24,340 nt of DNA from Candidatus Saccharimonadales bacterium (GTDB lineage Bacteria; Patescibacteriota; Saccharimonadia; Saccharimonadales; UBA4665), in the NCBI GenBank assembly GCA_038199095.1, contig JBBPZG010000108.1:1-24340 (forward strand), in the 5' to 3' direction. Numbering within the stretch: position 1 is the stretch's first letter; every line of letters begins with the position of its first letter. The position numbers were made by a program, and so were the translations under genes. The notes below the pieces were generated by a model. The model saw only the letters and a list, made by a program, of their open reading frames with translations. It was not told the DNA's origin and ran no database searches. Shown one piece after another: positions 9,159 to 24,340 of this stretch.

Positions 9159-9159
9159 G

Positions 9160-9168: not shown

Positions 9169-9175
9169 ATTGCTA

Positions 9176-10090: not shown

Positions 10091-10147
10091 CCCGTAGTCG
10101 CGACGGTACGCCTGCATATCTGGAGTGCCCGGCTACGAGCTAACAGC
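10089..10147. repeat. GCCCGTAG-family hairpin element, short copy
   Basis: AGCCCGTAG ... CGGCTACGAGCTAACAGCT as in 2773-2867. Confidence 0.75.
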
Positions 10148-10170
10148 TTATCTGCCCTGGCGGTCGATGT

Positions 10171-10185
10171 TGCTTATGCTATACT
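10171..10185 (+). promoter_or_regulatory. Extended -10 promoter for the minor pilin operon (TGCTTATGC-TATACT)
   Basis: TGc-TATACT at 10177-10185. Confidence 0.55.
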
Positions 10186-10235
10186 AAAAGTAATATGAAA
10201 GGTGGAAGCTGGCCTTCATTTGTCGGTTCAATCGT

Positions 10236-11117: not shown

Positions 11118-11668
11118 TACCGCGGCTCAAGCAGCTTAACCAGGCAGGCGATACCATCGTAGAGGTACTGATAGTGATGGCCGTCCTGGGTCTGGCCTTC
11201 TCTATATCGCTGGCTACAGCCAACAAGGGGCTGACCCAATCGCGTAACGCCGAGGAACACTCCGAGGCCCTGGGCATCATCAACAGCCAGGTCGAGCTGG
11301 TGCGGGCGGCCTTTGCCAATAACCCTGCGTCTGTGCCCTCAGTTACAGCCAACAGTTTTTGTATGTCAAACCCAGCTGATACTACCAAAATACCTCTGCT
11401 GTTACATCGTTATAGTGTAGACCCTAACAATGCAGCTGCTGATGACCTCTCTTCGCTTCCGTCAGGCAACTACCCGAATAACCCGCCCGATAACAGCTGT
11501 GTCCAAAACAACTATTACCACATAAGCGTTACCCACCGGCCTTCCGCCTCTAGCAGCCAGGATTACTTCGACTTTATCGTTCGCTGGGACGGCATCGGTG
11601 GCCTGGGCCGCCAGCAAGAAGAGCTTTCTTACAAAATCAGTGCTATTACGGCGCCGCCCGGGTTTTGA
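11114..11668 (+). CDS. Minor pilin (PilV-like position)
   Basis: AG|DTIVEVLIVMAVLGLAF; ATGA overlap with the previous gene. Confidence 0.78.
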   Translation: MIPRLKQLNQAGDTIVEVLIVMAVLGLAFSISLATANKGLTQSRNAEEHSEALGIINSQVELVRAAFANNPASVPSVTANSFCMSNPADTTKIPLLLHRYSVDPNNAAADDLSSLPSGNYPNNPPDNSCVQNNYYHISVTHRPSASSSQDYFDFIVRWDGIGGLGRQQEELSYKISAITAPPGF

Positions 11669-11684
11669 GTAATCCATAACCACC

Positions 11685-12428
11685 ATGAAAATCACCATAA
11701 AAAACTATAAACTTACACCAGCAAATGATCAGGGTTTCACGATTGTGGAGCTATTAATAGCCATGGCTATACTCTCCATCATCCTGGTGATGTCAACAGT
11801 GGTACTAATCCAGGTAGGCAACCTCTACAGCAAGGGCGTCAACGCAGCCAACTTGCAGAACGCCAGCCGCACAATCGCCGCCGACATCGCCTCTTCGCTC
11901 CAATTTAGCGGTGCTGCGCCGCAAATCTGTGCGGCACCGGCTCAAGACGACCCGACCTGTCCGAACCAATCAACCTCAAAGACTATCCAGGGTGATCCTC
12001 CCGGCTCGCCTCTCCCAATCTACAGTGTATGCATAGGCACCACGCGTTACAGCTATGCCCTAAATCGTGAGCTAGGCACCGATAGCGCCAATGGCTTCAT
12101 AACGCCGCACGTGCTGTGGCGCGACACGCTCAACAACAGCAACGACCTCTGTAGTCCGCTTGATCTAACACAGTCAACCCCAACCGACGGATCAAGCAAG
12201 GGCGACGGCTACGAGATGGCGCCGGCCCACACCAGATTAGGGCGGTTCAAGGTTACGCGCGTGGCCGGCACCAGCAACATCCATACTGTCGACGTCTGGA
12301 TGGATTATGGCGATAGCGACCTCTTAAATATAGCCACCGATGGTAGCGCGACTTGCCAGGGCGGCCAAGGCACGCAATTCTGTTCAACTTCACAAATTAG
12401 CACGACGCTCACAGGAAGGTTATACTAA
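11685..12428 (+). CDS. Minor pilin (PilW-like position)
   Basis: QG|FTIVELLIAMAILSIILV. Confidence 0.82.
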   Translation: MKITIKNYKLTPANDQGFTIVELLIAMAILSIILVMSTVVLIQVGNLYSKGVNAANLQNASRTIAADIASSLQFSGAAPQICAAPAQDDPTCPNQSTSKTIQGDPPGSPLPIYSVCIGTTRYSYALNRELGTDSANGFITPHVLWRDTLNNSNDLCSPLDLTQSTPTDGSSKGDGYEMAPAHTRLGRFKVTRVAGTSNIHTVDVWMDYGDSDLLNIATDGSATCQGGQGTQFCSTSQISTTLTGRLY

Positions 12429-12443
12429 AGTACAATAACGCTT

Positions 12444-13538
12444 ATGAAACGAAAAGTAGTTAGTTTAAGGAGTGACCAGCAGGGTTTTGCAGCCATAGTA
12501 ATCGCCATAGTTCTGGTGTTGGTGCTCAGCCTAATCACCGTCGGTTTTGCCAGCCTGATGCGCAAAGAACAGCGCCAGGCGCTCGACAAACAGCTCTCCA
12601 GCCAGGCTTACTACGCCGCCGAATCGGGTATTAATGATGCCGTCCAGGCATTGAGCAGCGGCTATACGGCAAACAAAATCACCTGCGGGCCTTACGCTGG
12701 CGCTGCTTTACCGCCGGGCTCTGCCTCCCTGAAGGATAATACCGTCGGCACTAACACCGGTGCCAGCTACCCCTGCCTGCTGATTAACCAGACTCCTCCC
12801 TCGTTGGAATACGGGTCTGTGGGCACTACCGTACCGAAAGTGGTTGAGCTGACGGCGGTGGGCCCCGACGGCGTCACCCATGTCCCCATAACATCGATTA
12901 AGGTTAGCTGGGAAGATACCGGCAGCAATACCAACTTTGTCCCCTCGAGCGTTAGCCCAAATTGCCAAAAATTCTTTCCCGCCGGTCCAGCGGCTAACCA
13001 GTGGAGCTATATAGGCCTGCTCAGATTCCAACTTATCCCGGTAGATCTGAAGAATCTCAACCGCGATAGTATCAATAACAGCGCCTACACTACTTTTATG
13101 TGCCCAAATGATGGCACTAACCGGTCTACGCCAGGTAGTGCTAGCTACGGTACGAATACTACCAATGGTGAGATTACTTTCGGCAACTGTAAAAATTCTA
13201 ATCCAGGCCAACCACAGGCCTGTAATGTTTCAATAGGTAGTCTACCTGCAGGCCAAGCCACCTACCTTGTCGACATGCGCTCCATTTACAACCCAACCAA
13301 AGTGACCCTAACCGTTTACGACGCCAGTGGCACCCAACTAAACATTAAGGATGCCCAGGCGCTGGTTGACTCCACCGGCAAGGCCCAGGATGTGCTGCGC
13401 CGTATCCAGGTACGTGTACCCTTGCACAACAACTACGATATCCCGGACGGCACCCACGGCAATGCCGCCATCTGCAAGCAGCTGGACTTAGTACCCTCAG
13501 GCACCCCTAACTTTACCTCTAATAGCCACTGCCAATAA
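12444..13538 (+). CDS. PilX/GspK-like minor pilin
   Basis: QG|FAAIVIAIVLVLV lacking E5, plus QAYYAAESGINDA motif typical of PilX N-termini. Confidence 0.78.
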   Translation: MKRKVVSLRSDQQGFAAIVIAIVLVLVLSLITVGFASLMRKEQRQALDKQLSSQAYYAAESGINDAVQALSSGYTANKITCGPYAGAALPPGSASLKDNTVGTNTGASYPCLLINQTPPSLEYGSVGTTVPKVVELTAVGPDGVTHVPITSIKVSWEDTGSNTNFVPSSVSPNCQKFFPAGPAANQWSYIGLLRFQLIPVDLKNLNRDSINNSAYTTFMCPNDGTNRSTPGSASYGTNTTNGEITFGNCKNSNPGQPQACNVSIGSLPAGQATYLVDMRSIYNPTKVTLTVYDASGTQLNIKDAQALVDSTGKAQDVLRRIQVRVPLHNNYDIPDGTHGNAAICKQLDLVPSGTPNFTSNSHCQ

Positions 13539-13761: not shown

Positions 13762-14670
13762 TTACTTGCGGTGGAACTTCTCGTGGACGGCGCGCAAGTG
13801 CGGGTCGGTCACATGGGTGTAGATCTGGGTGGTGGCGATGTTGCTGTGGCCGAGCATGGCCTGCACGCTCCTTAGGTCGGCGCCGTTCATCAGTAAGTCA
13901 GTTGCGAAGGAATGCCGTAGCGTGTGTGGGCTGACATGCTTGGTAATACCGGCCAGCAGGGCATAGCGCGCTACGATCCGCTGCACGCTGCGAACGGTCA
14001 GGCGGTGGAAGTTGCCCGATAAGTCGACTTGTTTGGTGCCGCTGTAGCGCACAAACAGGGGCTTGGACGTGTCTTGGCGCTTCTGCAAATAGTGCTCAAC
14101 CCATGTGGCGGCTTCGGCACTGATGAAAATCGGCCGGTCCTTCTGGCCCTTACCGCGCACCATAAACTCCCGGCGCTTGAGGTTAATGTGGTCGCGGTCC
14201 AGCCCGACCAATTCGCTTACCCGCAATCCCGAGCTAAATAGCAGTTCTAGGATGGCCCGGTCGCGCACGCCGCTCAGCGTACTAACATCTGGCTGCTCGA
14301 ATACCCGGGCTAGCTCATCTTCGTTTAGGAACGTAACCTGCTTGCGGCGGGTACGGGCCAGCTCAATCTTATCGGCTGGCAGGGCAGTGATGTCGCGCTT
14401 GGCGCAGTATTTCAGGAAACTGCGCAAGGCAATCAGGTGGTAGTTCTGGGTAGCTTTGCCAAGCTCGTCAGAGGTGTTGGTACCCAGCCGGTTGAGCCAG
14501 AGCCGCCACTTACGGATCAGCTCCACGTCCACATCGCTCACCTCAATATCGCCGGCAAAATCGACCAATCTTGTTAGATAATGGTCATAATTCTGGATAG
14601 TCTTCTGCGAGCGGTTCTGCTCAATCTCCAAATATTCCAAAAAATTTGTCTTGGCCCGTGCAAATAGCAT
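13762..14670 (-). CDS. Xer-family tyrosine recombinase
   Basis: Complete catalytic set: SGLRVSEL (R), GKGQK (K), PHTLRHSFAT (HxxR), LGH, TQIYTH (Y); N-terminal SAM-like domain; start at ATG 14670, with TACAAT 6 nt upstream. Confidence 0.92.
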   Translation of the reverse strand: MLFARAKTNFLEYLEIEQNRSQKTIQNYDHYLTRLVDFAGDIEVSDVDVELIRKWRLWLNRLGTNTSDELGKATQNYHLIALRSFLKYCAKRDITALPADKIELARTRRKQVTFLNEDELARVFEQPDVSTLSGVRDRAILELLFSSGLRVSELVGLDRDHINLKRREFMVRGKGQKDRPIFISAEAATWVEHYLQKRQDTSKPLFVRYSGTKQVDLSGNFHRLTVRSVQRIVARYALLAGITKHVSPHTLRHSFATDLLMNGADLRSVQAMLGHSNIATTQIYTHVTDPHLRAVHEKFHRK

Positions 14671-14700
14671 AAGTACATTGTACGACAACCAACTCAAAAC

Positions 14701-15208
14701 CGTCATCCCGGTCAGCCCTTGAACTTGTTTCAAGGCGCGTGACCGGAGGACCCCACCCACACCTCAGCAAAGACTTTCTCCTCCACGTCATCCCGGCACC
14801 CCGATCAAGTCGGGGCACAGGCTCCAGCCGGGACCCAGTCAACAGCACTGCGCAGCACTCCTCATGTCATCCTGAACTAGTTTCAGGACCCATACGAACA
14901 GGTAGTACGTTAGAGACATCACCCTGTCTTCATCCTCAAACCACACCTCTCTTCTCTCCCATTCTTTTTTGGTGGCAAAAAAGAACCAAAAAAGCCACCG
15001 CCTGGACTACTTAGGACTACTTACTACCGTAAGACGCTCCGCTCGTGTCTACACTAAGCTTCACTGAAGCTTAGTGGGTTCCCCAAGCGGCTACCCACTC
15101 TCATATTGCTTTTATTCACGCGGCTTACTGCTAAACAGCCTGCTGCTGTATATACGGGATCCCGGATCAAGCACCTTGAAGCAAGTTCAAGGGCTGTCCG
15201 GGACGACG
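14701..15208. repeat. Cluster of CGTCAT-headed palindromic repeats
   Basis: 14701-14754 is inverted-homologous to 15155-15208; further copies at 14786-14838 and 14866-14891. Confidence 0.8.
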
Positions 15209-16440: not shown

Positions 16441-17016
16441 ATGGCACAGGCCAAACAAACAAAGCCTAAATATTTTGAGGACCAGTTCGATGACGAAGAG
16501 GTGTTGTACGTATTCCATAAGCACCCGGTAGTGATGCGTAAAGGCCTGGTGTTTGGCATGCTCGGACCAATGTTCGGTATCATTCCGGCGGCTATTAAGC
16601 CTGATTTAGGCTTCGGCTTCTTCTTTGGCGGGTTAGCGCTCGGCTGTATCCTTGGCTTACTGATTTTCGCACCCAGCTGGATTAGCTGGCACTTCAGCAT
16701 ATTTATCATAACCGACCAACGGTTTATCCAGATCACCCAGAAGGGATTGTTCCACCGCGCGGTAGCCGACCTGGGCCTCAGCCAAATCCAGTCCATTAAC
16801 TACGAGGTCGCGGGGCTGCAAGAGACCCTGCTCGGATTTGGTACAATAAAGATGCAGACCTACGTGGGAGACCTGACGATTCACGACTTGCACCACCCCG
16901 CCAAGATCCAGAAAAAACTTATCGGCATCCTGCGTAAGGAAGGAATTAACACCAACCAATACCCAGCCGGCTCTACAGGGCCAGCCAATGATGAATCCAA
17001 TGAAGAAGAAACCTAA
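16441..17016 (+). CDS. Membrane protein with bacterial PH domain
   Basis: Two TM segments followed by FIITDQRFIQITQKGLF and LLGFGTIK, typical of bPH domains; start may be 16435 or 16441. Confidence 0.7.
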   Translation: MAQAKQTKPKYFEDQFDDEEVLYVFHKHPVVMRKGLVFGMLGPMFGIIPAAIKPDLGFGFFFGGLALGCILGLLIFAPSWISWHFSIFIITDQRFIQITQKGLFHRAVADLGLSQIQSINYEVAGLQETLLGFGTIKMQTYVGDLTIHDLHHPAKIQKKLIGILRKEGINTNQYPAGSTGPANDESNEEET

Positions 17017-18085
17017 GCTCAAGAAGCCTAATTTACAGATCAAGCGCCCGTTTAGGCGCAAAGGTAAGGTAACTGAAGAGCGCGTTAATGATGCATTTAG
17101 CAATGTACCGCGCATTACCAATGAAACAGTAACCGAGCACCGCGAAGAGGTGCTGTCTAGTGCCCGCAAGTACATCTACCCCCTGCAGCAATCCAAACAC
17201 CGGGTGGTGCGCGTTTCTATCGCGCTGCTGGTGACGGTGGTCGTGGCCTTTTTGGCATACTGCGGGCTGGCGCTCTACAAGTTCCAGTCCACCTCCGGCT
17301 TCATGTATGACGTCGTCCGTGTACTACCATTCCCCGTAGCGAAAGCGGGTCCCAGCTGGGTCGGCTACGAATCCTATCTGTTTGAGCTGCGGCGCAACAT
17401 GCATTATTACCGCACCCAGCAACAGGCCAACTTTTCTACCAAAGACGGTAAAGTCCAGCTGGCAAGGCTCAAACAGCAGGCTATGCACCAAGTCATCGAA
17501 GATACCTATACTAAGCAGCTGGCTGAAAAAAACGGCGTAGTAGTGAGCGATGAGGCAGTGAGCAACGAAGTGACCCTGGTGCGCAGCCAGAACAGGCTGG
17601 GTACCAACGACCGGGTGTTCAAAGAAGTACTCAACGAATTTTGGGGTTGGAACGAAGCTGACTTCAGGCGCGAACTCAAACAACAACTACTGCAGCAGGC
17701 CGTAGTCTCAAAACTAGATACCGGTACCCACGACCGCGCCGATGCGGCCCTCAAGCAGCTCCAGGGCGGGGCGGACTTTGGAACGTTAGCTACCAAAGTT
17801 TCTGAAGACCCGAATACTAAAGCTACTGGTGGCCAGTACCCAGCGCCGCTTACCCATACCGACCGCAACACCGCGCCGGCAGTAACTGCCGAACTCTTCA
17901 AGCTCAAGCCGGGGCAGGTGTCACCAATAATCAATACTGGCTACACGCTCGACATCCTAAAAGTACTCGAGGCTACCGGCACGGCCCGCCGGGCTGCCCA
18001 CATCCAGTTCAACTTCGAGGACATCACCACCTACACCAAGCCGCTTGAAACTACACAACCCCCCCACACCTACATACATGTTTAG
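16988..18085 (+). CDS. SurA N-terminal / PpiC-type peptidyl-prolyl isomerase (PrsA-like foldase)
   Basis: Membrane anchor, SurA-N-like helices, GADFGTLA.KVSED..T...GG and L..GQVSP.I.T..GY rotamase motifs; true start may be 17000. Confidence 0.72.
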   Translation: MMNPMKKKPKLKKPNLQIKRPFRRKGKVTEERVNDAFSNVPRITNETVTEHREEVLSSARKYIYPLQQSKHRVVRVSIALLVTVVVAFLAYCGLALYKFQSTSGFMYDVVRVLPFPVAKAGPSWVGYESYLFELRRNMHYYRTQQQANFSTKDGKVQLARLKQQAMHQVIEDTYTKQLAEKNGVVVSDEAVSNEVTLVRSQNRLGTNDRVFKEVLNEFWGWNEADFRRELKQQLLQQAVVSKLDTGTHDRADAALKQLQGGADFGTLATKVSEDPNTKATGGQYPAPLTHTDRNTAPAVTAELFKLKPGQVSPIINTGYTLDILKVLEATGTARRAAHIQFNFEDITTYTKPLETTQPPHTYIHV

Positions 18086-18095: not shown

Positions 18096-18207
18096 CGCTC
18101 AGTACATGTAACATGTAGCATTGATCATGTGGCATAGATGTAGCATGTGTCATGTTGCAGGTAATTGCGCAATTGGTTAATTACCTGTTACCTGCAACAT
18201 GTGCTAC
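18096..18207. repeat. 7-bp-periodic hairpin (CATGTA/G units)
   Basis: CATGTTGCAGGTAA is inverted at TTACCTGCAACATG; CATGT-type units recur about every 7 bp. Confidence 0.75.
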
Positions 18208-18279: not shown

Positions 18280-18312
18280 CAAAACTTTAAATGCTTAGCA
18301 TTTAAAGTTTTG
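18280..18312. repeat. 33-bp perfect palindrome (16-1-16)
   Basis: CAAAACTTTAAATGCT-T-AGCATTTAAAGTTTTG. Confidence 0.9.
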
Positions 18313-18386
18313 AAAGGAGCGCCGTAGCTGTAGACCGAAGCTTTTGCCGGACAGGCAAAACGAGGTAGCAGCGTACGGTGAGACGC

Positions 18387-18463
18387 GGGCTCGTAGTGAA
18401 GAGGCCTATCACGCCTCCCTGTCACGGAGGAGATCGCCGGTTCGAATCCGGTCGGGCCCGCCA
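18387..18463 (+). tRNA. tRNA-Asp(GTC)
   Basis: Acceptor GGGCTCG/CGGGCCC, anticodon arm CCTCC-CT GTC AC-GGAGG, T arm GCCGG-TTCGAAT-CCGGT, G73 and CCA. Confidence 0.95.
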
Positions 18464-18465
18464 AA

Positions 18466-18494
18466 TTGACTTTGTATACTGTTTATGTTATTGT
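18466..18494 (+). promoter_or_regulatory. Cassette 1 promoter TTGACT-N17-TATTGT (TGn-extended)
   Basis: Begins 2 nt after the tRNA CCA; ATG 18501 lies 6 nt after the -10. Confidence 0.6.
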
Positions 18495-18500
18495 TAATTG

Positions 18501-18716
18501 ATGATTAATCAAGAACGCCCAGACGAACTAATCATATTGCCTGTTGATTTAGGTGATTTACAACAACCTGATTATTCGTCTACAACACCTCTATTAGAAT
18601 TAAAAGAAACCGAGGAAACCGCTGATAAAATAAATCTTCGTGAGGAAATAGTTAAATCTGAATTATCTCCACAAAACGTTATTGAAGCTCTAAAAAAAGC
18701 TTCCGGAAATAGCTAA
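18501..18716 (+). CDS. Cassette 1: small acidic hypothetical protein
   Basis: ORF with a correctly spaced promoter; no recognisable family. Confidence 0.55.
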   Translation: MINQERPDELIILPVDLGDLQQPDYSSTTPLLELKETEETADKINLREEIVKSELSPQNVIEALKKASGNS

Positions 18717-18760
18717 ACTGCGGTCATAATTAAGACATCTGTAACAGCATCTGATTTATT

Positions 18761-18800
18761 AAAATAGTTCCAGACCTCTTCCACTACGGCCCGCCAAGCA
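18761..18800 (+). repeat. Junction R1 (type A)
   Basis: AAAATAGTTCCAGAC-CTCTTCCA-CTACGGCCCGCCAAGCA. Confidence 0.92.
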
Positions 18801-18829
18801 TTGACATTACATACTACTTATGTTAATAT
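18801..18829 (+). promoter_or_regulatory. Cassette 2 promoter TTGACA-N17-TAATAT
   Basis: Consensus -35, TGn-extended -10, ATG 18836 6 nt downstream. Confidence 0.75.
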
Positions 18830-18835
18830 GCTGTT

Positions 18836-19195
18836 ATGACAAATCAAGATCCTTCTTTAGTTAATTCTGGTGAGCAGGCTTATACGGCAGAGCATTTTGT
18901 AGAACAGCTTCAAACACTTAACCCTAATGAACAATCTGATTTTTATAATGATTGGCTTGATAAAACAGTTCCAGGAAGACTCACAGCTAAAACTAGAGAA
19001 GCATCTGCGGCTGCTGCAAGCGGTAATTCTGATCTAGAACAAATACTAGTACTAGAAGCATATGCTGAACTGGAAGAGGCTCGAGATTATGCGCAGCGAG
19101 AAGCTACCAACGAGCTTACATCTCAAGAATTAGCTACAAAAGAAGCATTAGCCAGTATATTTCCAGATAAATGGCCGTTTGTAACAGCAAAATAG
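18836..19195 (+). CDS. Cassette 2: acidic helical hypothetical protein
   Basis: 119 aa; TAG stop lies inside R2. Confidence 0.72.
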   Translation: MTNQDPSLVNSGEQAYTAEHFVEQLQTLNPNEQSDFYNDWLDKTVPGRLTAKTREASAAAASGNSDLEQILVLEAYAELEEARDYAQREATNELTSQELATKEALASIFPDKWPFVTAK

Positions 19196-19229
19196 TTCCA
19201 GACATCCGTGGCTGCGGCCCGCCCCGACA
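19189..19229 (+). repeat. Junction R2 (type A)
   Basis: AAAATAGTTCCAGAC-ATCCGTGG-CTGCGGCCCGCCCCGACA. Confidence 0.9.
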
Positions 19230-19258
19230 TTGACAAAATACTATCTCTGTGATACTAT
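19230..19258 (+). promoter_or_regulatory. Cassette 3 promoter TTGACA-N17-TACTAT
   Basis: Consensus -35, TGn-extended -10, ATG 19265 6 nt downstream. Confidence 0.75.
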
Positions 19259-19264
19259 CTTTTT

Positions 19265-19783
19265 ATGTCTATACAAACAGAAACTGTAAATATTAGACAG
19301 GCCACCGAAGACGATCAACAGTTTATTAATCAAATGTGCTACGAAGCTGGCTTCCCTGACGGGATGGATGATCGACTTACGTTTGAAGCTGCCCAGCAAA
19401 TAGACTGGGTACCGCTCTATCAAGAAGAATGGGGAAAACGCGAAGGCGACTTTGGCCTTATCGCTGAAAAAGACGGAAAACCCCTCGGAGCAGCTTGGTA
19501 CCGTGACTATTCTGCACTAATTACTAATGAGAACACGCCAAAGCACGAATTGAGCATCGCCCTCTTACCGGAAGCCCGGGGTCATAAAATAGGTAGCGAA
19601 CTTATGACAAAACTGCTTGAGGGAGCTTCTGAGCAAGGTATTGAGGATATAAGTCTGGTAGTAAGAGAGTCTAACGCAGTAGCTAAGAACATGTATCAAA
19701 AGATAGGTTTCTTAACCATACATGAGTCTGATGATGGCTATATAACGATGGCCGCATCAACTTCTTCTGCCGACCCAAAATAG
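19265..19783 (+). CDS. Cassette 3: GNAT family N-acetyltransferase
   Basis: IRQATEDD start, LSIALLPEARGHKIGSELM (motif A), SNAVAKNMYQKIGF (motif B); TAG stop inside R3. Confidence 0.9.
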   Translation: MSIQTETVNIRQATEDDQQFINQMCYEAGFPDGMDDRLTFEAAQQIDWVPLYQEEWGKREGDFGLIAEKDGKPLGAAWYRDYSALITNENTPKHELSIALLPEARGHKIGSELMTKLLEGASEQGIEDISLVVRESNAVAKNMYQKIGFLTIHESDDGYITMAASTSSADPK

Positions 19784-19826
19784 TTCCAGCCCTGGAAGGC
19801 TACGGCCCGCCAAGCATAAGCACTTT
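19777..19826 (+). repeat. Junction R3 (type A)
   Basis: AAAATAGTTCCAGCC-CTGGAAGG-CTACGGCCCGCCAAGCATAAGCACTTT. Confidence 0.92.
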
Positions 19827-19850
19827 TATTAAAGTAGTTTTATGTTTATC

Positions 19851-19879
19851 TTGCATAATTATGCAATAAAAGTTATCTT
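19851..19879 (+). promoter_or_regulatory. Cassette 4 promoter TTGCAT-N17-TATCTT with overlapping 16-bp palindrome
   Basis: TTGCATAATTATGCAA at 19851-19866; ATG 19886 6 nt after the -10. Confidence 0.6.
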
Positions 19880-19885
19880 TGAATT

Positions 19886-20281
19886 ATGAGCGACGGTGTA
19901 TCTCCAGAAACTCTTAATACAGATGGTCATCGGCAAAGAGCAGAGGAGTTTGTATTATCTAAACCATTGCTAAGAGGCTTGGGCGAAATAGCCCAAAACC
20001 CGGGTGTCTATCGCCTTACTTGGATGCTTGATGAAGTTGACCAGGTAGTATCGGATCACAGTATTGGCCATCCACCCTTTGCTCGTTGGTGTAATATTGG
20101 CTTTACACATGACCCAATGAAAAGAATTATTGAAGGCTCTATGCTTAAAAGGGTAATGGCAGTAATTGGTACAAAACAAGCAGACGGTGTAGATCTTGAA
20201 CTTGTTTTTACAACTCCAACAGATTGGCAAGGCTACTTAGCAGAATACGATAGACTAGGCGAGTTAGACCAGGCAGCCTAG
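19886..20281 (+). CDS. Cassette 4: hypothetical protein
   Basis: 131 aa; ends in TAG within a TAGTTC remnant. Confidence 0.72.
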   Translation: MSDGVSPETLNTDGHRQRAEEFVLSKPLLRGLGEIAQNPGVYRLTWMLDEVDQVVSDHSIGHPPFARWCNIGFTHDPMKRIIEGSMLKRVMAVIGTKQADGVDLELVFTTPTDWQGYLAEYDRLGELDQAA

Positions 20282-20334
20282 TTCATTTTTGCTCATGGTT
20301 GCAAGTGACGCAAATCTAGCTAAAATAGTTTTTT

Positions 20335-20522
20335 ATGAGTGAAGAATATCCGGACTATATAGTAAGTAGAGACGAGAACATATTGCTGATACAAGAGGTA
20401 TTGATTCCGGAGATGTGGTTATAGGTAGGGAAGAGCTAAGAAACCTAGGTTCAGTTGGTTTTCTTGGATCCAGATGGAATTCTTCTTGGCAACCTAGTGG
20501 CGGCAACCCAGACCTTAACTAG
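20335..20522 (+). pseudogene. Possible frameshifted small cassette gene
   Basis: TTGCAA-N16-TAAAAT promoter, then ATG 20335 opens 29 codons; a second frame from about 20382 stays open to TAG 20522, just before R4. Confidence 0.35.
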
Positions 20523-20535
20523 TACTAACTGATCG

Positions 20536-20580
20536 CTGTTCTAAAATCCGACTCGATGTCCCGCCAAGCATAAGCACTTT
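20536..20580 (+). repeat. Junction R4 (type B)
   Basis: CTGTTCTAAAATCCGACTCGATGTCCCGCCAAGCATAAGCACTTT. Confidence 0.9.
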
Positions 20581-20613
20581 CTGCAAGGAGGTAGCTTTCG
20601 TTTTTGCTCATGC

Positions 20614-20641
20614 TTGCATTTACTTGTTTAAAAGATAAGAT
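20614..20641 (+). promoter_or_regulatory. Cassette 5 promoter TTGCAT-N16-TAAGAT
   Basis: ATG 20648 6 nt after the -10. Confidence 0.55.
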
Positions 20642-20647
20642 AAATCT

Positions 20648-21529
20648 ATGTCAGAACAATCTAGTGGTTTACAAACTGGTGAAATTATTGCCGACGCGAC
20701 ACGTGCTCAGCATGGTGATGATATCGCTGCTCGCATTTCCAAACTAGTTGAATACGGTCCATTACGTATCGTTACTCATGTACCCGATATCCCCGGAGTA
20801 GAATATCGGAAACCTTATCGCCGAGACGCTGATCAGCAAACATTTGCCAGCATAGGTTCTACGGCTTTATCGGTATTGTCCGATGAATCCGGAGTTAAAG
20901 TTGCAGTTCATAGTAAAGATCAAAAAGAGCCTTTTATACTGCTGCCTGAGCAAGTTGAAAATGTGTACGTTGATCATCCTCATAGTTCCGATATGCCACT
21001 CAGAGGTCAAAGTATGATGGCGATAAGTCTTACAAAACGTGATGGAGTATCTGTCCTACGCTGGCCAAATCACGTAATTGAATTCGGTTACCGTGATAGG
21101 ATTGATACAGAAAATCATCCGGATTATCCAGGGATTAGTATTGTAAGAGCCTATAAGGCCGATGATGGTGATATATGGGCCAGCTTAAAAGAGCGTAAGA
21201 TCGCAAGTCTAGAAGACGCAAAACAAGCAGACGATCAACCGAGAACATTTCTTATCACAAAAATAGATGATGAAAACTACGTAGTTACTTCCCGCATTGG
21301 ATACGAAGAAACTACACCAGTAACGGTTCGTCGTCCAAAACATCCAGGTAATGAACCTTTGCTACATATAGAGATGCTAGACATGAATAAAGATACAAGT
21401 GATGAAGAGCTTTTAGAGAATCATCTTAAACGATACCGTAATTTAAGCCAAAGATATCTTGACTCACCAAGACGGTCAATGAAGCCATTTGAGCTAGACA
21501 GCGTTTTCCTCTATATGGTGCATGATTGA
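20648..21529 (+). CDS. Cassette 5: hypothetical protein
   Basis: 293-aa ORF, no recognised family. Confidence 0.8.
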   Translation: MSEQSSGLQTGEIIADATRAQHGDDIAARISKLVEYGPLRIVTHVPDIPGVEYRKPYRRDADQQTFASIGSTALSVLSDESGVKVAVHSKDQKEPFILLPEQVENVYVDHPHSSDMPLRGQSMMAISLTKRDGVSVLRWPNHVIEFGYRDRIDTENHPDYPGISIVRAYKADDGDIWASLKERKIASLEDAKQADDQPRTFLITKIDDENYVVTSRIGYEETTPVTVRRPKHPGNEPLLHIEMLDMNKDTSDEELLENHLKRYRNLSQRYLDSPRRSMKPFELDSVFLYMVHD

Positions 21530-21580
21530 GCAGTGGGCTTATACAGATAGTAATACAAGACTTTCATTTGTACATTGAGT

Positions 21581-21616
21581 AATATAGTTCCAGACTTTTT
21601 CCGATATGGCCCGCCA
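21581..21616 (+). repeat. Junction R5 (type A)
   Basis: AATATAGTTCCAGAC-TTTTTCCG-ATATGGCCCGCCA. Confidence 0.88.
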
Positions 21617-21632
21617 TACAGCTTATGCTTAA

Positions 21633-21641
21633 TGATATACT
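21633..21641 (+). promoter_or_regulatory. Cassette 6 extended -10 TGa-TATACT
   Basis: ATG 21648 6 nt downstream. Confidence 0.55.
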
Positions 21642-21647
21642 TGTTGC

Positions 21648-21914
21648 ATGCCCCAACATTGGCAAGATTTAGTACTTTCAACTTGTATTCTCGGCTTTAA
21701 CCTAGCGTTAATTCCTACGCTCTTAAGTAAAAAACATAATCCACACGCTGGCACGGGGATTACGACGGCTACATTTCAACTAGTAGCATTTACTGTTTAT
21801 ACAAGTCTGCATTTATGGTATTCAGCGGCGATGGGTTTATTAAATGCAATTTTATGGGCAGTCATAGTGGTTCAAGGTCTGTCCACCCAAAAGCGCCCTC
21901 AACGTAAGCGATAG
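21648..21914 (+). CDS. Cassette 6: small ~3-TM membrane protein
   Basis: Three hydrophobic segments; TAG stop inside R6. Confidence 0.75.
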   Translation: MPQHWQDLVLSTCILGFNLALIPTLLSKKHNPHAGTGITTATFQLVAFTVYTSLHLWYSAAMGLLNAILWAVIVVQGLSTQKRPQRKR

Positions 21915-21949
21915 TTCTGAGGTCTGACTCGATGCCCCGCCTTAAGCAT
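21912..21949 (+). repeat. Junction R6 (type B, diverged)
   Basis: TAGTTCTGAGGTCTGACTCGATGCCCCGCCTTAAGCAT; GTTC-N18-CCCGCC. Confidence 0.8.
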
Positions 21950-21990
21950 TGGCTGCTCATACTGTCTACATTGTTCTTATTGAGCTCATC

Positions 21991-22025
21991 AAATAGTTCC
22001 GGATCCCTAACGTTAAGGCTCGCTA
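21991..22025 (+). repeat. Junction R7 (type A, degenerate)
   Basis: AAATAGTTCCGGAT-CCCTAACG-TTAAGGCTCGCTA; GTTC-N19-CTCGCT. Confidence 0.65.
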
Positions 22026-22147
22026 ACGAGTTCTTATAGCATTAACTTTGCAACACTAGGACAACTAGGCCAAGCAGACATTGGTTAACTTATCACACGT
22101 TGGTTTGAGGTAGGCAACATAATTACGCCAGTGGAGATAAGCTTTTT

Positions 22148-22156
22148 TGCTAATAT
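22148..22156 (+). promoter_or_regulatory. Cassette 8 extended -10 TGc-TAATAT
   Basis: ATG 22163 6 nt downstream. Confidence 0.55.
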
Positions 22157-22162
22157 GAAGTC

Positions 22163-23014
22163 ATGCCTAATGCTTTTATTCCGATGCTTGCTGCTTTTGC
22201 GTGTGCTCTCTGTAATGGTACGGCAGCCGTACTACAGAAAATAAGTGCTGATAAAGAGAAGAATGTGACGTCATTGGACGCTCGATTATTATGGCGGCTT
22301 TTTCAAGATATGTCGTATGTCAGTGGCATTGGATTGGATGTTCTTGGCTGGATATTAACCCTATATGCTGTACACTACCTACCACTATTTTTAGTAGAAG
22401 CAATTATCGCAGCTAACATTGTGATTACGGCATTAATTGAGCGACTGTTTAGACACCAAGAAATAAATCGTTGGTCATACTTTGCAATTATCATTATCTT
22501 AGTGGGGCTTATCTTAGTGGCGATCGCCTCATCGGCCGGGAGATCTGAGCCCATAAGTAACGTAGTTAGGTGGATTATAATTTTTTCACCACTCCCCCTA
22601 GGCATTGCTGGTTATATCTTAGCTCGGCTTAAAAGTTATCGATCTACAGTAGGCTTAGCTATTCTCAGCGGTTTAGCATTTGGCGATACTTCAGTAATAG
22701 GTAGGATTTTCAGTGTTTCACATCCACTTTGGCACACTTTCTATAATCCACTTATTTACTCATTACTGGTTAGTGGATCCCTTGGCGTCTTGCTTTTTTC
22801 GACTGCTCTGCAACGTGCACAAGCTACTGTGATGAATGCTACCATGACTGCCAGCCAAATTTTAATTCCAGCAGTGGTCGGTATCGCATTTTTGGGTGAT
22901 AATGCTCGCAATGGTCTCTGGTATTTAGTAGTTCTGGGTTGCTCTCTGTCACTTGGAGGAGTAATTGTGTTAGCTTTTACGAATTATAAAAGTAATGTTC
23001 AGTTGAGAGTTTAA
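22163..23014 (+). CDS. Cassette 8: DMT-superfamily (EamA/NIPA-like) membrane transporter
   Basis: About 9 TM helices in two repeats; N-terminal A..NG.AAVLQK and PLFLVEAI pattern typical of this DMT subgroup. Confidence 0.75.
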   Translation: MPNAFIPMLAAFACALCNGTAAVLQKISADKEKNVTSLDARLLWRLFQDMSYVSGIGLDVLGWILTLYAVHYLPLFLVEAIIAANIVITALIERLFRHQEINRWSYFAIIIILVGLILVAIASSAGRSEPISNVVRWIIIFSPLPLGIAGYILARLKSYRSTVGLAILSGLAFGDTSVIGRIFSVSHPLWHTFYNPLIYSLLVSGSLGVLLFSTALQRAQATVMNATMTASQILIPAVVGIAFLGDNARNGLWYLVVLGCSLSLGGVIVLAFTNYKSNVQLRV

Positions 23015-23269
23015 GCTCAGTCTATCTACAAACTATGCAACGGGCGTTTCGCTCATTAGCTGCTCGTTAATATTTATTGTTAAATACACGTAAATTTTGT
23101 ACTGTCTAGCTAATTGTTATCAGTTTAACTTTAAACAGTCACCTAGTAAACCAGAAGTATAGCCAGGTGGCACTAACTAGTTTCGACAAAAAAGCTTTTG
23201 ACCTACACATCTACTTTCTTCCAAGCAATAGTGATTAGGAAAACACCGCACGCTATAATTATGTAGTAA

Positions 23270-23314
23270 CAGTTCGAAAATCCGACTCTATGTCCCGCCA
23301 AGCATAAGCACTTT
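23270..23314 (+). repeat. Junction R8 (type B)
   Basis: CAGTTCGAAAATCCGACTCTATGTCCCGCCAAGCATAAGCACTTT. Confidence 0.92.
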
Positions 23315-23325
23315 CTTACAATACA

Positions 23326-23649
23326 ATGCGGGTGTACTCTCTTATTATGTCAATGAACAGAGAAGACTTAGGAGCATCACTTGAGAGCTGGCAGCAATCT
23401 GCTAGCCATGACCGCAAGCAATTCCTCGCAAGCTTTGCAATATCTGGTATGGGGCTACTGGTATGTGGTGAGGGTATTGGGACAATCGCAAACGGAGCAT
23501 TAGTGCCGGGTGTAATTGAGATTATTTTAGGTGGGGGTCTGACAACGTTATTCGCTAGAAACGGATTAAATGAAGTCGAAAGCTATGCAGAAACGGAAAG
23601 AACAGTAGCTTTCAAACAGTATCAATTAGATGAGCTAGATGCCAACTAG
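23326..23649 (+). CDS. Cassette 9: 2-TM hypothetical membrane protein
   Basis: Two Gly-rich hydrophobic helices; start may be 23347 or 23353; stop 4 nt before R9. Confidence 0.7.
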   Translation: MRVYSLIMSMNREDLGASLESWQQSASHDRKQFLASFAISGMGLLVCGEGIGTIANGALVPGVIEIILGGGLTTLFARNGLNEVESYAETERTVAFKQYQLDELDAN

Positions 23650-23653
23650 TTGC

Positions 23654-23703
23654 AAAATAGTTCCAGATATTCAAAGCTACGGCCCGCCAAGCATAAGCAC
23701 TTT
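23654..23703 (+). repeat. Junction R9 (type A)
   Basis: AAAATAGTTCCAGAT-ATTCAAAG-CTACGGCCCGCCAAGCATAAGCACTTT. Confidence 0.92.
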
Positions 23704-23756
23704 AGCAGAGCAAGTGAAATTATTCGAGAACGAAAACAGATAAAAGGAGTAGAGAA

Positions 23757-24065
23757 TTACTCTGTCTCTGGGTCAGATAAATCAATTTCTTCAACGAGTT
23801 GACGTTCAGCACAGCTCTTAAGGATAGCGATGGCCATCTTCATCCCGCCAGCTACAAGATGGGCATCTCTTTCAGGAGTACCGTAACCCTCTAAGATGTC
23901 TTGTGCGGCATCTACAATTCCAGCTAATGCCGTGTAGTCTGAGTCGATGGTACGGTCAATAGCAGTCGCTTCTTCAGGCTCAAATAGAGTAACTGTTATC
24001 ACGTCAGCAAAAGCTTTGCCAACGACATCCTCATCAAGATTTTCTAACTCCTCATGTAAAGTCAT
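23757..24065 (-). CDS. Cassette 10: acidic hypothetical protein, inverted orientation
   Basis: ORF on the minus strand; ATG 24065 is preceded by TTGATA-N16-TATTAT (24101-24074). Confidence 0.7.
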   Translation of the reverse strand: MTLHEELENLDEDVVGKAFADVITVTLFEPEEATAIDRTIDSDYTALAGIVDAAQDILEGYGTPERDAHLVAGGMKMAIAILKSCAERQLVEEIDLSDPETE

Positions 24066-24118
24066 AATTGTATATAATAACAGAGGTCTAATATTTATCA
24101 ACTAACCCTCGTGTGATA

Positions 24119-24150
24119 CTGTTCGAAAATCCGACTCTATAGCCCGCCAA
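24119..24150 (+). repeat. Junction R10 (type B)
   Basis: CTGTTCGAAAATCCGACTCTATAGCCCGCCAA. Confidence 0.9.
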
Positions 24151-24200
24151 GAGACTATACTCTTAAATCATAAAGTAAATTGTATTTTATAGGGTATTTA

Positions 24201-24334
24201 CCCGAATCACGAAACTCTACCCCAACGCATCGTCATCTCGAGCTAAGCCGAGAGATCTCGTTACCTCTGATGATATACTACGAGACTCCTCGGCTTCGCT
24301 CGGAATGACAGTGGTGGGAGTTTCGTGATTCGGG
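24201..24334. repeat. CGTC-type REP doublet inside a 17-bp perfect inverted repeat
   Basis: CCCGAATCACGAAACTC (24201-24217) / GAGTTTCGTGATTCGGG (24318-24334); inner CGTCATCTCGAGCTAAGCCGAGAGATCTC and inverted GAGACTCCTCGGCTTCGCTCGGAATGAC. Confidence 0.82.
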
Positions 24335-24340
24335 TCCCAC

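What the first reader, a model, noticed from the sequence alone, without database searches (positions are those of the whole stretch)
18387..24150. Putative tRNA-Asp-anchored, integron-like array of single-gene cassettes
Seen: starting at the CCA of tRNA-Asp, about 10 units follow, mostly one unrelated AT-rich ORF each (GNAT, DMT transporter, small membrane proteins, acidic ORFans). Ten related junctions separate them, at 18761, 19189, 19777, 20536, 21581, 21912, 21991, 23270, 23654 and 24119. All have GTTC-N18/19-CCCGCC(A) or a close variant. The tRNA itself ends GTTC-N13-CCCGCCA and is followed by a TTGAC promoter, as R1 and R2 are. Established: tyrosine integrases often target tRNA 3' ends and leave a partial tRNA duplicate, and integron cassettes are single-gene units rich in GNATs and small membrane proteins. 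Inference: circular mini-cassettes were inserted one after another at a short core (about GGCCCGCCA) at the tRNA 3' end, each restoring the tRNA and pushing older cassettes downstream. No attC-type long palindromes, IntI or cassette-borne integrase are present. I do not recognise a described system with this exact architecture.
Basis: partly seen in the sequence, partly recalled or inferred. Interest (0 to 1): 0.93.

Follow-up and report, generated by a model that had tools for sequence, protein, structure and literature searches.

The report
tRNA-anchored gene-cassette array, serine-recombinase type
Behind a tRNA-Asp gene of a tiny Saccharibacteria genome lies a row of about nine one-gene cassettes, each closed by a conserved 45-base site; in related genomes that same site marks the far end of mobile elements carrying a large serine recombinase, which points to the enzyme that builds these integron-like arrays.

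Summary
Ten same-strand junctions of two types, A and B, follow tRNA-Asp and divide 5.7 kb into single-gene units. All strong matches in the 1.0 Mb assembly lie in this stretch. The same junction types follow tRNA-Asp in many other genera: type A occurs in 87 of 301 family genomes. The tRNA-Asp to tRNA-Thr interval varies from 0.24 to 7.7 kb. This scan had already noted similar arrays on other Saccharibacteria DNA, with the recombinase unknown.

New here is a candidate recombinase. In 13 of 13 relatives that carry one clade of large serine recombinase (LSR), its gene abuts tRNA-Asp on the opposite strand and its stop codon lies 41 nt inside the tRNA. In 10 of the 11 elements traced to their far end, and probably the eleventh, that end is a type A junction.

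The junction's "variable centre" is codon-patterned on the antisense strand, in the LSR's reading frame. The GTTC-to-CCA distance is 24 nt in the tRNA and 29-30 nt in junctions, which matches the 5-bp attB/attP offset of serine integrases.

This genome has LSRs beside four other tRNAs but none for tRNA-Asp, so its array is probably an orphan. The only tyrosine recombinase is a housekeeping Xer. Cassette circles were not testable. I judge it a new variant of known kinds (SCC-like, tycheposon-like, integron-like).

The parts
18387..18463 (+). tRNA-Asp(GTC), the anchor of the array. Its last 9 nt, GGCCCGCCA, are the core shared with the junctions. GTTC lies 24 nt from the 3' end, which is attB-type spacing.
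18464..18796 (+). Cassette 1: promoter at 18466-18494, a 72-aa ORF with no database match (an ORFan) at 18498-18716, and type A junction R1 at 18765-18796.
18797..19224 (+). Cassette 2: promoter at 18801-18829, a 119-aa ORFan at 18836-19195 whose stop is the TAG of the junction, and type A junction R2 at 19193-19224 (its core ends CCC rather than CCA).
19225..19812 (+). Cassette 3: promoter at 19230-19258, a GNAT acetyltransferase at 19265-19783, and type A junction R3 at 19781-19812.
19813..20566 (+). Cassette 4: starts with AGCATAAGCACTTT. It holds a 131-aa ORFan at 19886-20281, a roughly 250-nt stretch with only broken frames, and type B junction R4 at 20538-20566.
20567..21616 (+). Cassette 5: starts with AGCATAAGCACTTT, holds a 293-aa ORFan at 20648-21529, and ends in type A junction R5 at 21585-21616. 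Homologues (52-53% identity) in other metagenomes include one lying 0.7 kb upstream of tRNA-Thr/Gly, which is the same island.
21617..21942 (+). Cassette 6: an 88-aa membrane protein at 21648-21914 and the type B variant junction R6 at 21914-21942. Homologues sit in the tRNA-Lys array of this genome (contig C49, 47% identity), as the first cassette after tRNA-Asp in G012 (69%), and in L049 (43%).
21943..22025 (+). An 80-nt empty unit closed by the degenerate type A junction R7 at 21994-22025. Its antisense frame contains stops.
22026..23300 (+). Cassette 7: an EamA/DMT transporter at 22163-23014, a 250-nt tail, and type B junction R8 at 23272-23300.
23301..23689 (+). Cassette 8: starts with AGCATAAGCACTTT, holds a 107-aa ORFan at 23326-23649, and ends in type A junction R9 at 23658-23689.
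23690..24149 (.). Cassette 9: a 114-aa acidic ORFan on the minus strand at 23757-24101 with its own promoter at 24101-24074, and type B junction R10 at 24121-24149.
24200..24340 (.). A 141-nt hairpin repeat (18-nt arms) that ends the contig. It is identical to the end of contig C15, so this is an assembly break and not the end of the array.
13762..14760 (-). Xer-type tyrosine recombinase. It is not part of the system and is listed only because it is the sole full-length tyrosine recombinase in the assembly.

Best explanation
The stretch is a tRNA-Asp-anchored array built by repeated site-specific integration at the last 9 nt of the tRNA gene (GGCCCGCCA). The recombinase that made it is most likely a tRNA-Asp-specific clade of large serine recombinase (LSR).

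In relatives this LSR lies at the tRNA-proximal end of 2.3-7.2 kb elements. Its ORF runs antisense across the attachment core into the tRNA, and the element's far end is a type A junction.

Each junction reads as a phage-type (P) half-site: a 9-bp ATAGTTCCA motif, a 15-nt spacer and the core, with the motif 5-6 bp further from the core than GTTCGAATC is in the tRNA (the bacterial-type, B, half-site). An insertion at the core leaves the tRNA intact and pushes older units downstream.

The one-gene units in this window carry the P arm but no LSR. They are either mobilised in trans or left over from LSR elements. No tRNA-Asp-type LSR is in this assembly, so the array here is probably an orphan, comparable to an integron cassette cluster without its integrase.

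Shown: the anatomy, the conservation, the LSR adjacency, the reading-frame signature and the spacing. Inferred: catalysis by the LSR, the exchange point, and mobility of single cassettes.
For: 1. Array and junction families.

2. The same A and B junctions follow tRNA-Asp in other genera and in one other family. The interval to tRNA-Thr/Gly runs from 0.24 to 7.7 kb. The type A pattern occurs in 87 of 301 family genomes and 56 of 102 genera, clustered on one strand. The reversed-pattern control gave about 12 hits against about 160 real ones.

3. G000 has three full LSRs and one partial. All four lie beside tRNA 3' ends: Gln, Ser(gct), Pro (a 22-nt overlap) and Gly(tcc).

4. LSRs occur in 179 of 301 family genomes. 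In 20 of 30 sampled loci the LSR stop codon lies inside a tRNA. All 12 orthologues of the tRNA-Asp clade (42-100% identity), plus the metagenomic locus L044, stop exactly 41 nt inside tRNA-Asp. Paralogues pair with Asn, Lys, Leu and Ser tRNAs.

5. In 10 of 11 such loci the first recurrence of the core downstream of the LSR is a type A junction, 2.3-7.2 kb away. The eleventh has one at about +6 kb. Eleven of 12 genomes with this LSR clade have type A sites, against 76 of 289 others.

6. On the antisense strand, in the frame set by TGG (the complement of CCA), which is the LSR's frame, 39 type A sites encode WRAV[AVT][LE][EQ][VI]WNYF. Seven type B sites encode WR[DA]IESDFRT. Synonymous changes make up 0.55 (A) and 0.62 (B) of single-nucleotide codon differences in that frame, against 0.16-0.34 in the other two frames.

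7. GTT-to-CCA is 24 nt in the tRNA and 29-30 nt in all four junction families of this genome. In serine integrases the zinc-ribbon-domain (ZD) motif lies 5 bp closer to the centre in attB than in attP (PMC3783163).

8. The cassette 6 gene family occurs in the tRNA-Asp and tRNA-Lys arrays and at different array positions. Homology starts right after the core.

9. A roughly 96%-identical strain lacks 18485-19174 and 23315-24004, blocks that end at junctions.
Against: - No LSR of the tRNA-Asp clade is in this assembly, which is 89.5% complete and whose contig ends inside the array.
- G021 is 99% complete and has junctions but no LSR at E<=1e-10. Arrays therefore outlast the enzyme, and the link rests on co-location in other genomes.
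- Serine integrases need only a 2-bp overlap. The first core recurrence after an LSR could in principle belong to an older array rather than to the LSR's own element.
- Canonical serine integrases recombine attP with attB only, which does not by itself explain repeated insertion next to an attL-like site or excision of single units.
- I found no dyad symmetry beyond GGC-CC-GCC. The right flanks are conserved for only 10-14 nt.
- No circles or empty sites could be observed, because only assembled contigs were available.
- No LSR clade whose element ends in a type B junction was identified.
Confidence: 0.6

Rival explanations
1. Serial site-specific integration at the tRNA core, as above, but carried out by a different or unknown recombinase. 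One candidate is the Xer encoded 3.6 kb upstream, acting as it does for IMEX elements or pdif modules. On this view the LSR elements are just one more tenant of the same hotspot.
For: The Xer gene is the only full-length tyrosine recombinase in the assembly and lies in the same neighbourhood in many relatives. Arrays exist in genomes without any LSR (G021). No LSR for tRNA-Asp is present here.
Against: Xer is 77-90% identical across relatives whose neighbouring PPIase is only 44-69% identical, and it is syntenic. That is the behaviour of a core chromosome-resolution gene. It scores below the XerC, XerD and IntI cut-offs and passes only XerA. The junctions have no dif-like 11-6-11 dyad. The junctions' codon phase and the 5-6 bp offset fit the LSR specifically.
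Confidence: 0.13
2. The junctions are portable homology arms. Saccharibacteria take up DNA through their type IV pili, and RecA swaps, deletes or adds cassettes by homologous recombination between the 45-55 nt junction modules. On this view the LSR link concerns only the origin of the repeats.
For: Competence-type pilus genes fill the first 13.5 kb of the window. Some junction pairs are 88-96% identical over 45-51 nt: R4 with R8 and R3 with R9. Such stretches could support deletions like those suggested in strain X2.
Against: Most junction pairs are only 60-70% identical and have a variable centre, which is too little for efficient RecA exchange. The arms are conserved across 56 genera and follow a fixed geometry and codon phase, so selection acts on a site rather than on mere similarity. 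Left arms and right flanks recombine exactly at the core.
Confidence: 0.1
3. The junctions are passive scars. Ordinary islands or prophages integrated at tRNA-Asp, displaced partial tRNA ends and then decayed. The one-gene units are remnants and no cassette-level mobility remains.
For: Some relatives carry plain 18-26 nt duplicates of the tRNA end (L025, L026, L033, L036). R7 is degenerate. Homologues of cassette 5 sit in the same island with decayed junctions.
Against: Types A and B are not decayed tRNA ends. Each keeps its own consensus, length and antisense codon pattern across genera. The units are compact, each with its own promoter. The cassette 6 family sits in arrays at two different tRNAs. 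Near-identical strains differ by whole units.
Confidence: 0.1
4. The repeats act at the RNA level, as a terminator, a processing signal or a tRNA-like 3' end for each mRNA.
For: They sit at the 3' end of each gene and resemble the T-loop and acceptor end of a tRNA.
Against: Apart from the tRNA itself there is no credible Rfam match: the only other hits have E of 0.17 and 0.24, fall below their gathering scores and do not lie on junctions. No + strand terminator-like hairpin lies at any junction. The candidate TAG/CTA stem is absent from the many CCAC-type copies. The variation follows antisense codons rather than paired columns.
Confidence: 0.04
5. A classical integron whose IntI lies beyond the contig end.
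For: Single-gene, same-orientation cassettes rich in ORFans, GNAT and membrane proteins.
Against: The junctions lack attC-type imperfect palindromes and GTTRRRY/RYYYAAC boxes. No IntI was found: TIGR02249 scores 135 bits against a cut-off of 265 for the only tyrosine recombinase. The sites copy tRNA ends and differ from one tRNA to another.
Confidence: 0.01

Closest known systems
SCC elements and composite islands (SCCmec; CcrAB/CcrC large serine recombinases at the 3' end of rlmH/orfX) and the Enterococcus cassette chromosome (PMC6222049, listed but not read)
   Same: Both use a large serine recombinase that integrates at the 3' end of a conserved housekeeping gene without destroying it. Repeated insertion gives tandem arrays separated by short direct repeats. 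Many units in the array lack their own recombinase. (The SCC side of this comparison is from my own knowledge.)
   Different: Here the target is a tRNA 3' end and many different tRNAs are used, each by its own LSR clade. The units are far smaller, at 0.3-1.3 kb and one gene each. The LSR ORF crosses the attachment site. The sites have a long conserved P arm with a coding signature. No Ccr orthology was tested.
Integrons and CALINs (attC clusters lacking an integrase)
   Same: Works alike: a fixed docking site, single promoter-proximal insertion, rows of compact one-gene cassettes that are mostly ORFans, GNATs, small membrane proteins and toxin-antitoxin pairs (the last seen in L044). Arrays persist without the integrase.
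   Different: The defining features are not met. There is no IntI tyrosine recombinase, no attI and no folded attC hairpins. Cassettes here carry their own promoters. The docking site is a tRNA gene end.
Tycheposon-built tRNA islands of Prochlorococcus (10.1101/2020.12.28.424599)
   Same: Streamlined genomes. Islands sit next to tRNA genes and are built by successive integrations that push older elements inward. Partial tRNA copies separate the units. A minority of the elements use a large serine recombinase.
   Different: Tycheposons are multi-gene elements, 910 of 937 carry tyrosine recombinases, and many carry replication modules. The separators there are plain partial tRNAs. Here they are dedicated 29-30 nt P-type arms conserved across genera, and the units are single genes.
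Phage serine integrases (A118/LI, Bxb1, phiC31, SPbeta) and their attP/attB architecture (PMC3783163; PDB 9dxh)
   Same: Domain set of Resolvase + Recombinase + Zn_ribbon_recom. The distal motif is 5-6 bp further from the centre in the element-borne half-site than in the chromosomal one.
   Different: Only remote sequence similarity (E 3e-9 to SPbeta integrase). No recombination directionality factor was identified. The att site is embedded in the integrase ORF. Serial insertion is not expected from strict attP x attB selectivity.
Integration-dependent immunity of mycobacteriophages, where attP lies inside a coding gene (from my own knowledge, not checked here)
   Same: The attachment site lies within an ORF, so the integrated and excised states encode proteins with different C-termini.
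   Different: There the repressor gene is split and the integrase is a tyrosine recombinase. Here the serine recombinase itself would change its tail, and that is only an inference.

Membership tests
Integron | IntI-type tyrosine recombinase next to the array | tested here: not met
   The only full tyrosine recombinase in the assembly (13762-14760) scores 135 bits on TIGR02249 against a cut-off of 265 and behaves as a core Xer. The array's far end is not assembled.
Integron | attC sites: imperfect palindromes with R''/L''-L'/R' boxes and a GTTRRRY core | tested here: not met
   The junctions have no conserved inverted repeat. The motif is GTTC(C/G)A rather than GTTRRRY.
Integron | Promoterless cassettes expressed from a common Pc promoter | tested here: not met
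   Strong extended -10 promoters follow the tRNA, R1 and R2, and cassette 9 has its own promoter on the minus strand.
Large-serine-recombinase integrative element (SCC-like array) | A recombinase with Resolvase, Recombinase and zinc-ribbon domains at the integration site | tested here: inconclusive
   Met in relatives at tRNA-Asp (L047, L044 and 11 more) and in this genome at four other tRNAs. Not found for tRNA-Asp in this incomplete assembly.
Large-serine-recombinase integrative element (SCC-like array) | Elements bounded by the target core, with an element-type half-site at the distal end | tested here: met
   Ten of 11 LSR-bearing units end in a type A junction, and the eleventh does. The same junction closes the cassettes of this window.
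Large-serine-recombinase integrative element (SCC-like array) | attP-type versus attB-type half-site geometry (distal motif shifted about 5 bp) | tested here: met
   GTT to CCA is 24 nt in tRNA-Asp and 29-30 nt in the A, B, Lys-type and C14-type junctions. The reference geometry is from PMC3783163.
Large-serine-recombinase integrative element (SCC-like array) | Recombination at a central dinucleotide, shown by excised circles and empty sites | not testable with these tools
   Only assembled contigs of the public runs were available.
Tycheposon-type tRNA island | Island adjacent to a full tRNA, units separated by partial copies of that tRNA, content differing between strains | tested here: met
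Tycheposon-type tRNA island | Hallmark element genes (tyrosine integrase plus a replication module) | tested here: not met
   None in the window. The LSR elements of relatives carry HTH, T5orf172, DUF5677 and SEC-C genes, with no primase or helicase.

The most novel reading that the evidence does not exclude
Saccharibacteria have an integron-like gene-capture system built on large serine recombinases instead of IntI. Each LSR clade docks at the 3' end of one tRNA. Its ORF runs across its own attachment site, so the enzyme carries one C-terminal tail when integrated (encoded by the tRNA complement, ...WRARPDSNRRSPP) and another when excised or when a cassette lies upstream (encoded by the P arm, ...WRAVALEVWNYFA). 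This tail switch would help set directionality without a separate directionality factor. One-gene cassettes spread by carrying just the P arm, which regenerates a usable docking site at the tRNA. That would give these reduced, epibiotic genomes several swappable accessory-gene racks.
Probability: 0.3. Interest if true: 0.9.

Novelty: new variant of a known kind. Interest (0 to 1): 0.8.

Why it matters
Saccharibacteria and other CPR bacteria have genomes of about 1 Mb and few recognised mobile elements, and how they gain accessory genes is an open question. These arrays are widespread: type A sites alone occur in 29% of 301 genomes of the family, and sister junction families sit behind the tRNA-Lys and tRNA-Ser genes and on one contig (C14) whose anchoring tRNA is not assembled. 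The arrays hold mostly ORFans.

Naming a candidate enzyme turns a descriptive oddity into an experiment. An LSR, a tRNA-end substrate and a 30-nt arm can be tested in E. coli or in vitro. If it works, it would be a natural platform for serial docking of small cassettes by a serine integrase. That bears on how integron-like systems evolve and offers compact, tRNA-directed integrases with defined short sites.

An att site read as protein on one strand and bound as DNA would also be a tidy case of dual coding.

Tried and rejected
- **Read-level evidence for circles.** The public runs that hold the locus are kept only as assembled contigs. The "goes back" and "skips" joints in X1 have 21-38 nt sides at depths that differ from the host's, so they come from other strains sharing junction motifs. 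I did not use them.
- **Dyad symmetry.** I scored the junctions and the reconstructed cassette circles. Only the core GGC-CC-GCC is symmetric and the rest is at chance, 8-9 of 25 matches against an expected 6. By eye the proximal ends of LSR elements showed GTTTCAGACC- or GTTGCA-like motifs, but their orientation was inconsistent, so I dropped them.
- **A TAG/CTA stem in type A.** It is absent from the many CCAC-type copies, so I rejected an RNA or ssDNA hairpin.
- **Xer/dif idea.** GCATAA and TTATG motifs after the core recalled dif arms. They are better explained as extended -10 promoters and a short conserved right flank, and Xer is a conserved core gene.
- **Cassette 5.** It is nearly unique: 1 of 300 other family genomes has a 35%-identical homologue, with no junction nearby. 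Metagenomic homologues sit in the same island or between pentose-phosphate genes, with decayed or absent junctions.
- **L077.** An LSR reads into a pseudo-tRNA-Gln junction, but no tRNA lies within 8 kb, so it does not show a cassette wedged between a tRNA and an LSR.
- **Other negatives.** PHROGs and PADLOC gave nothing on the cargo. Rfam gave no credible match except the tRNA. No reverse transcriptase or IS110 transposase was found, and only fragments of an IS200-type transposase at contig ends.
- **Literature.** Searches for Saccharibacteria with integron, genomic island or serine recombinase found no description of these arrays.

Full report
**1. What is there**

The window is the whole 24,340-nt contig C108 of a 166-contig, 1.01 Mb, 49% GC assembly (89.5% complete). 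Positions 42-13538 hold type IV pilus genes. A Xer-type recombinase lies at 13762-14760 on the minus strand, followed by ndk, tRNA-Arg, a SurA-like PPIase at 16988-18085, and tRNA-Asp(GTC) at 18387-18463.

- Six are type A (AAAATAGTTCCAGAC, a 9-nt centre, CTAC, GGCCCGCCA). One of these, at 21994, is degenerate.
- Four are type B (GTTCGAAAATCCGACTCTATGTCCCGCCA).

Between the junctions lie units of 0.33-1.27 kb, plus one empty 80-nt unit. Nearly all hold one ORF. Only a GNAT and an EamA transporter have any family match. Extended -10 promoters follow the tRNA, R1 and R2, and three ORFs stop at the TAG of TAGTTC.

**2. More than chance, and not genome-wide**

GTTC-N15-22-CCCGCC occurs 19 times in the assembly, and nine of those are in these 5.7 kb on one strand. 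A profile of the ten junctions finds them at E 6e-13 to 4e-7 and nothing else below 1e-4.

The weaker hits are sister families in other arrays of the same genome:
- Five sites on C14 read GTTGCGAAGCTCG..CTA-GGGGGAGCCA-AGCATAAGCAC.
- Five sites on C49 around tRNA-Lys read GGTTGCAATAG..-GGCCCTCCA.
- One site follows tRNA-Ser(gga) on C55.

In every family the last 7-9 nt copy the resident tRNA's end, and GTT lies 29-30 nt from the CCA. In a real tRNA that distance is 24 nt. Several contigs break exactly at tRNA 3' ends (C141, C81), as expected if what follows varies in the sampled population.

**3. Relatives**

In the family the order PPIase, tRNA-Asp, a variable stretch, tRNA-Thr(cgt), tRNA-Gly(ccc) is conserved. 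The variable stretch ranges from 0.24 kb to 7.7 kb. Types A and B recur there in other genera and in one other family, bounding different genes.

A pattern for type A (one mismatch allowed) hits 87 of 301 family genomes and 56 of 102 genera. Hits are usually clustered on one strand 0.4-2 kb apart. The reversed-pattern control gave about 12 hits against about 160 real ones. This genome has the most, with six.

Contigs of an unrelated rock metagenome (X2) carry a strain about 96-97% identical in the flanks. They cover 19175-23314 but not 18485-19174 or 23315-24004. These are blocks of two cassettes each, and they end at R2 and R8. Because these are contigs, the absence is suggestive only.

The 88-aa protein of cassette 6 has homologues in three places: the first cassette after tRNA-Asp in G012 (69%), the tRNA-Lys array of this same genome (47%, flanked there by GGCCCTCCA cores), and L049 (43%). 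Flank homology starts just after the core and is absent to its left.

Within the window, left arms (A or B) and right flanks (AGCATAAGCACTTT four times, TTGACA promoters, others) combine freely. All of this places the exchange point in the core and supports unit-wise turnover.

**4. What it is not**

The junctions are not attC sites. They have no conserved palindrome and no GTTRRRY box.

The only full tyrosine recombinase is not IntI: it scores 135 bits on TIGR02249 against a cut-off of 265. That gene is 77-90% identical and syntenic in relatives whose neighbouring PPIase is only 44-69% identical, so it is the housekeeping Xer.

Apart from the tRNA there is no credible Rfam match, and no + strand terminator-like hairpin lies at any junction. 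No reverse transcriptase or IS110-type transposase was found.

**5. The candidate recombinase**

The assembly holds three full large serine recombinases and one partial. Every one lies next to the 3' end of a tRNA gene and converges on it: tRNA-Gln (C103), tRNA-Ser gct (C117), tRNA-Pro (C118, where the ORF overlaps the tRNA by 22 nt) and tRNA-Gly tcc (C127).

Two metagenomic relatives (L047 and L044) have a 512-517 aa LSR directly after tRNA-Asp, with Resolvase, Recombinase and zinc-ribbon domains. A scan of 301 family genomes finds LSRs in 179. In 20 of the 30 loci returned, the LSR stop codon lies inside a tRNA gene on the other strand.
- All 12 orthologues of the L047 enzyme (42-100% identity), and L044, stop exactly 41 nt inside tRNA-Asp. 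The stop TGA is the complement of anticodon-loop TCA.
- Paralogues pair with tRNA-Asn (-41), Lys (-41), Leu (-46 to -55) and Ser (-32).

The LSR ORF therefore has no stop of its own before the attachment core. Its last 14 codons, WRARPDSNRRSPP, are the tRNA read backwards.

In 10 of 11 such loci followed downstream, the first recurrence of the core is a type A junction, 2.3-7.2 kb from the tRNA. The eleventh has one at about +6 kb. Further A- or B-bounded cassettes often follow. Eleven of the 12 genomes with this LSR clade have type A sites, against 76 of 289 others. Cargo in two elements is HTH, T5orf172, DUF5677 and SEC-C, with no phage structural genes.

**6. The junction read backwards is protein-like**

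The frame is set by TGG, the complement of CCA, which is the LSR's own frame.
- The 39 distinct type A sites encode W-R-A-V-[A/V/T]-[L/E]-[E/Q]-[V/I]-W-N-Y-F.
- The seven type B sites encode W-R-[D/A]-I-E-S-D-F-R-T.

In the "variable centre", second codon positions are the least variable and third positions the most. Synonymous changes make up 0.55 (A) and 0.62 (B) of single-nucleotide codon differences in this frame, against 0.16-0.34 in the other two.

Examples are CGA, AGA and CGG, all arginine, in type B. The arms of G076 and G092 differ at five positions in LTEAIWNYFA, and all five are synonymous.

The motif ATAGTTCCA is nearly invariant even at third positions, so a DNA-level constraint acts there as well. 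After WNYF(A) conservation stops, and a stop codon follows within 17-39 codons of the W.

My reading is that in the excised form, or when a cassette lies upstream, the LSR ORF continues through the core into the P arm. The arm would then be both a binding site and the enzyme's alternative tail. LSR-less cassettes carry the same arm, either because they must be recognised or because they descend from such elements. Which of the two holds is not settled.

**7. Geometry**

In the A118/LI integrase the zinc-ribbon domain's motif occupies half-site positions 16-24 in attP and 11-19 in attB, a 5-bp shift (PMC3783163).

Here the GTTC-type motif starts 24 nt from the CCA end in the tRNA and 29-30 nt from it in all junction families. 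If the centre lies 4-5 nt inside the core, around the CC of GGC-CC-GCC (the only symmetric part), the outer edges fall at about 19-20 and 25. These are the values expected for B and P half-sites.

The right flank AGCATAAGCA(C/T)TT is conserved for only 10-14 nt, which reaches about position 15-19. It also follows the intact tRNA directly in G021 and L050. It may therefore be a B'-type half-site that a cassette brings along, which would regenerate a docking site. This last step is inference.

**8. Verdict**

The system works like an integron and most resembles SCC-type arrays made by large serine recombinases and tycheposon-type tRNA islands. It fails the defining tests for an integron.

In this genome no tRNA-Asp LSR is visible, so the array is probably an orphan, or its enzyme lies in the unassembled part.

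Earlier notes of this scan had reported similar arrays at tRNA-Asn, Lys, Arg and Asp in other Saccharibacteria, with the recombinase unknown. I treated those as leads only.

I found no description of such arrays in the paper library.

**Main weaknesses**
- The enzyme link is by co-location in other genomes.
- Canonical serine-integrase rules do not explain serial insertion or single-cassette excision.
- No circles or empty sites could be examined.

Noticed in passing
window 18301-18389 and 18106-18201: The roughly 90 nt just upstream of tRNA-Asp recur at 79-89% identity directly upstream of other tRNA genes of this genome (C157 tRNA-Ala, C151 tRNA-Cys, C141 tRNA-Lys, C148) and in relatives. 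This looks like a shared tRNA leader or promoter module. The stretch 18106-18201 is a separate repeat found in both orientations on C130, C86, C21 and C154.
   Followed up: no
window 24200-24340: A 141-nt element with perfect 18-nt inverted arms ends the contig and is identical to the last 141 nt of contig C15. Diverged copies lie on C129, C77, C76 and C96. Word depth there is 74-214 in three metagenomes against 4-12 for the flanks. It is a multi-copy hairpin element that breaks assemblies.
   Followed up: partly
window 14690-15080: The spacer between the Xer gene and ndk has 5-10 times the depth of its flanks in X1 and X2, and many small indels and joints. It is another multi-copy or hypervariable repeat.
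   Followed up: no
G000 contig C49 1-5500; C141 end: tRNA-Lys(ttt) at C49:3232-3308 has Lys-type junctions (GGTTGCAATAG..GCCCCTCCA) both upstream (189, 2124) and downstream (3758, 4134, 5405). Contig C141 ends in an identical tRNA-Lys. Either a whole tRNA copy sits inside an array or two strains were co-assembled.
   Followed up: no
G000 contig C14 2399-4558 (minus strand): A second clean array has five junctions reading AGTTGCGAAGCTCG-CCACTA-GGGGGAGCCA-AGCATAAGCAC, spaced 360-700 nt apart with one ORF each. Its antisense frame encodes WLPL[VL][DV]ELRN. The anchoring tRNA is not on the contig; it may be tRNA-Asn, which is missing from the assembly.
   Followed up: partly
L025, L026, L033, L036 (relatives G012, G004, G034, G027): Some relatives have modules of about 170-250 nt right after tRNA-Asp that end in an exact 18-26 nt copy of the tRNA 3' end (..GATATCCGGTCGGGCCCGCCA). 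This is a third junction type, with tRNA-like (24-nt) spacing and a hairpin inside.
   Followed up: no
L077 / L106 (G285:C5): An LSR whose C-terminal tail and stop codon are encoded by the complement of a pseudo-tRNA-Gln junction (AAGTTATATTCCCGTCCCGTATCCCCAGCCA). No tRNA lies within 8 kb on that side.
   Followed up: partly
G000 contigs C55 (787-876, minus strand) and C105 (3376-3465): tRNA-Ser(gga) and tRNA-Ser(cga) are each followed, only 8-9 nt after the CCA, by a junction-like arm (AAGTTCAGATCCGACCCGTCT.. and TAGTTCTAAAGAGACCCGTCC..). This could be an empty docking unit.
   Followed up: no
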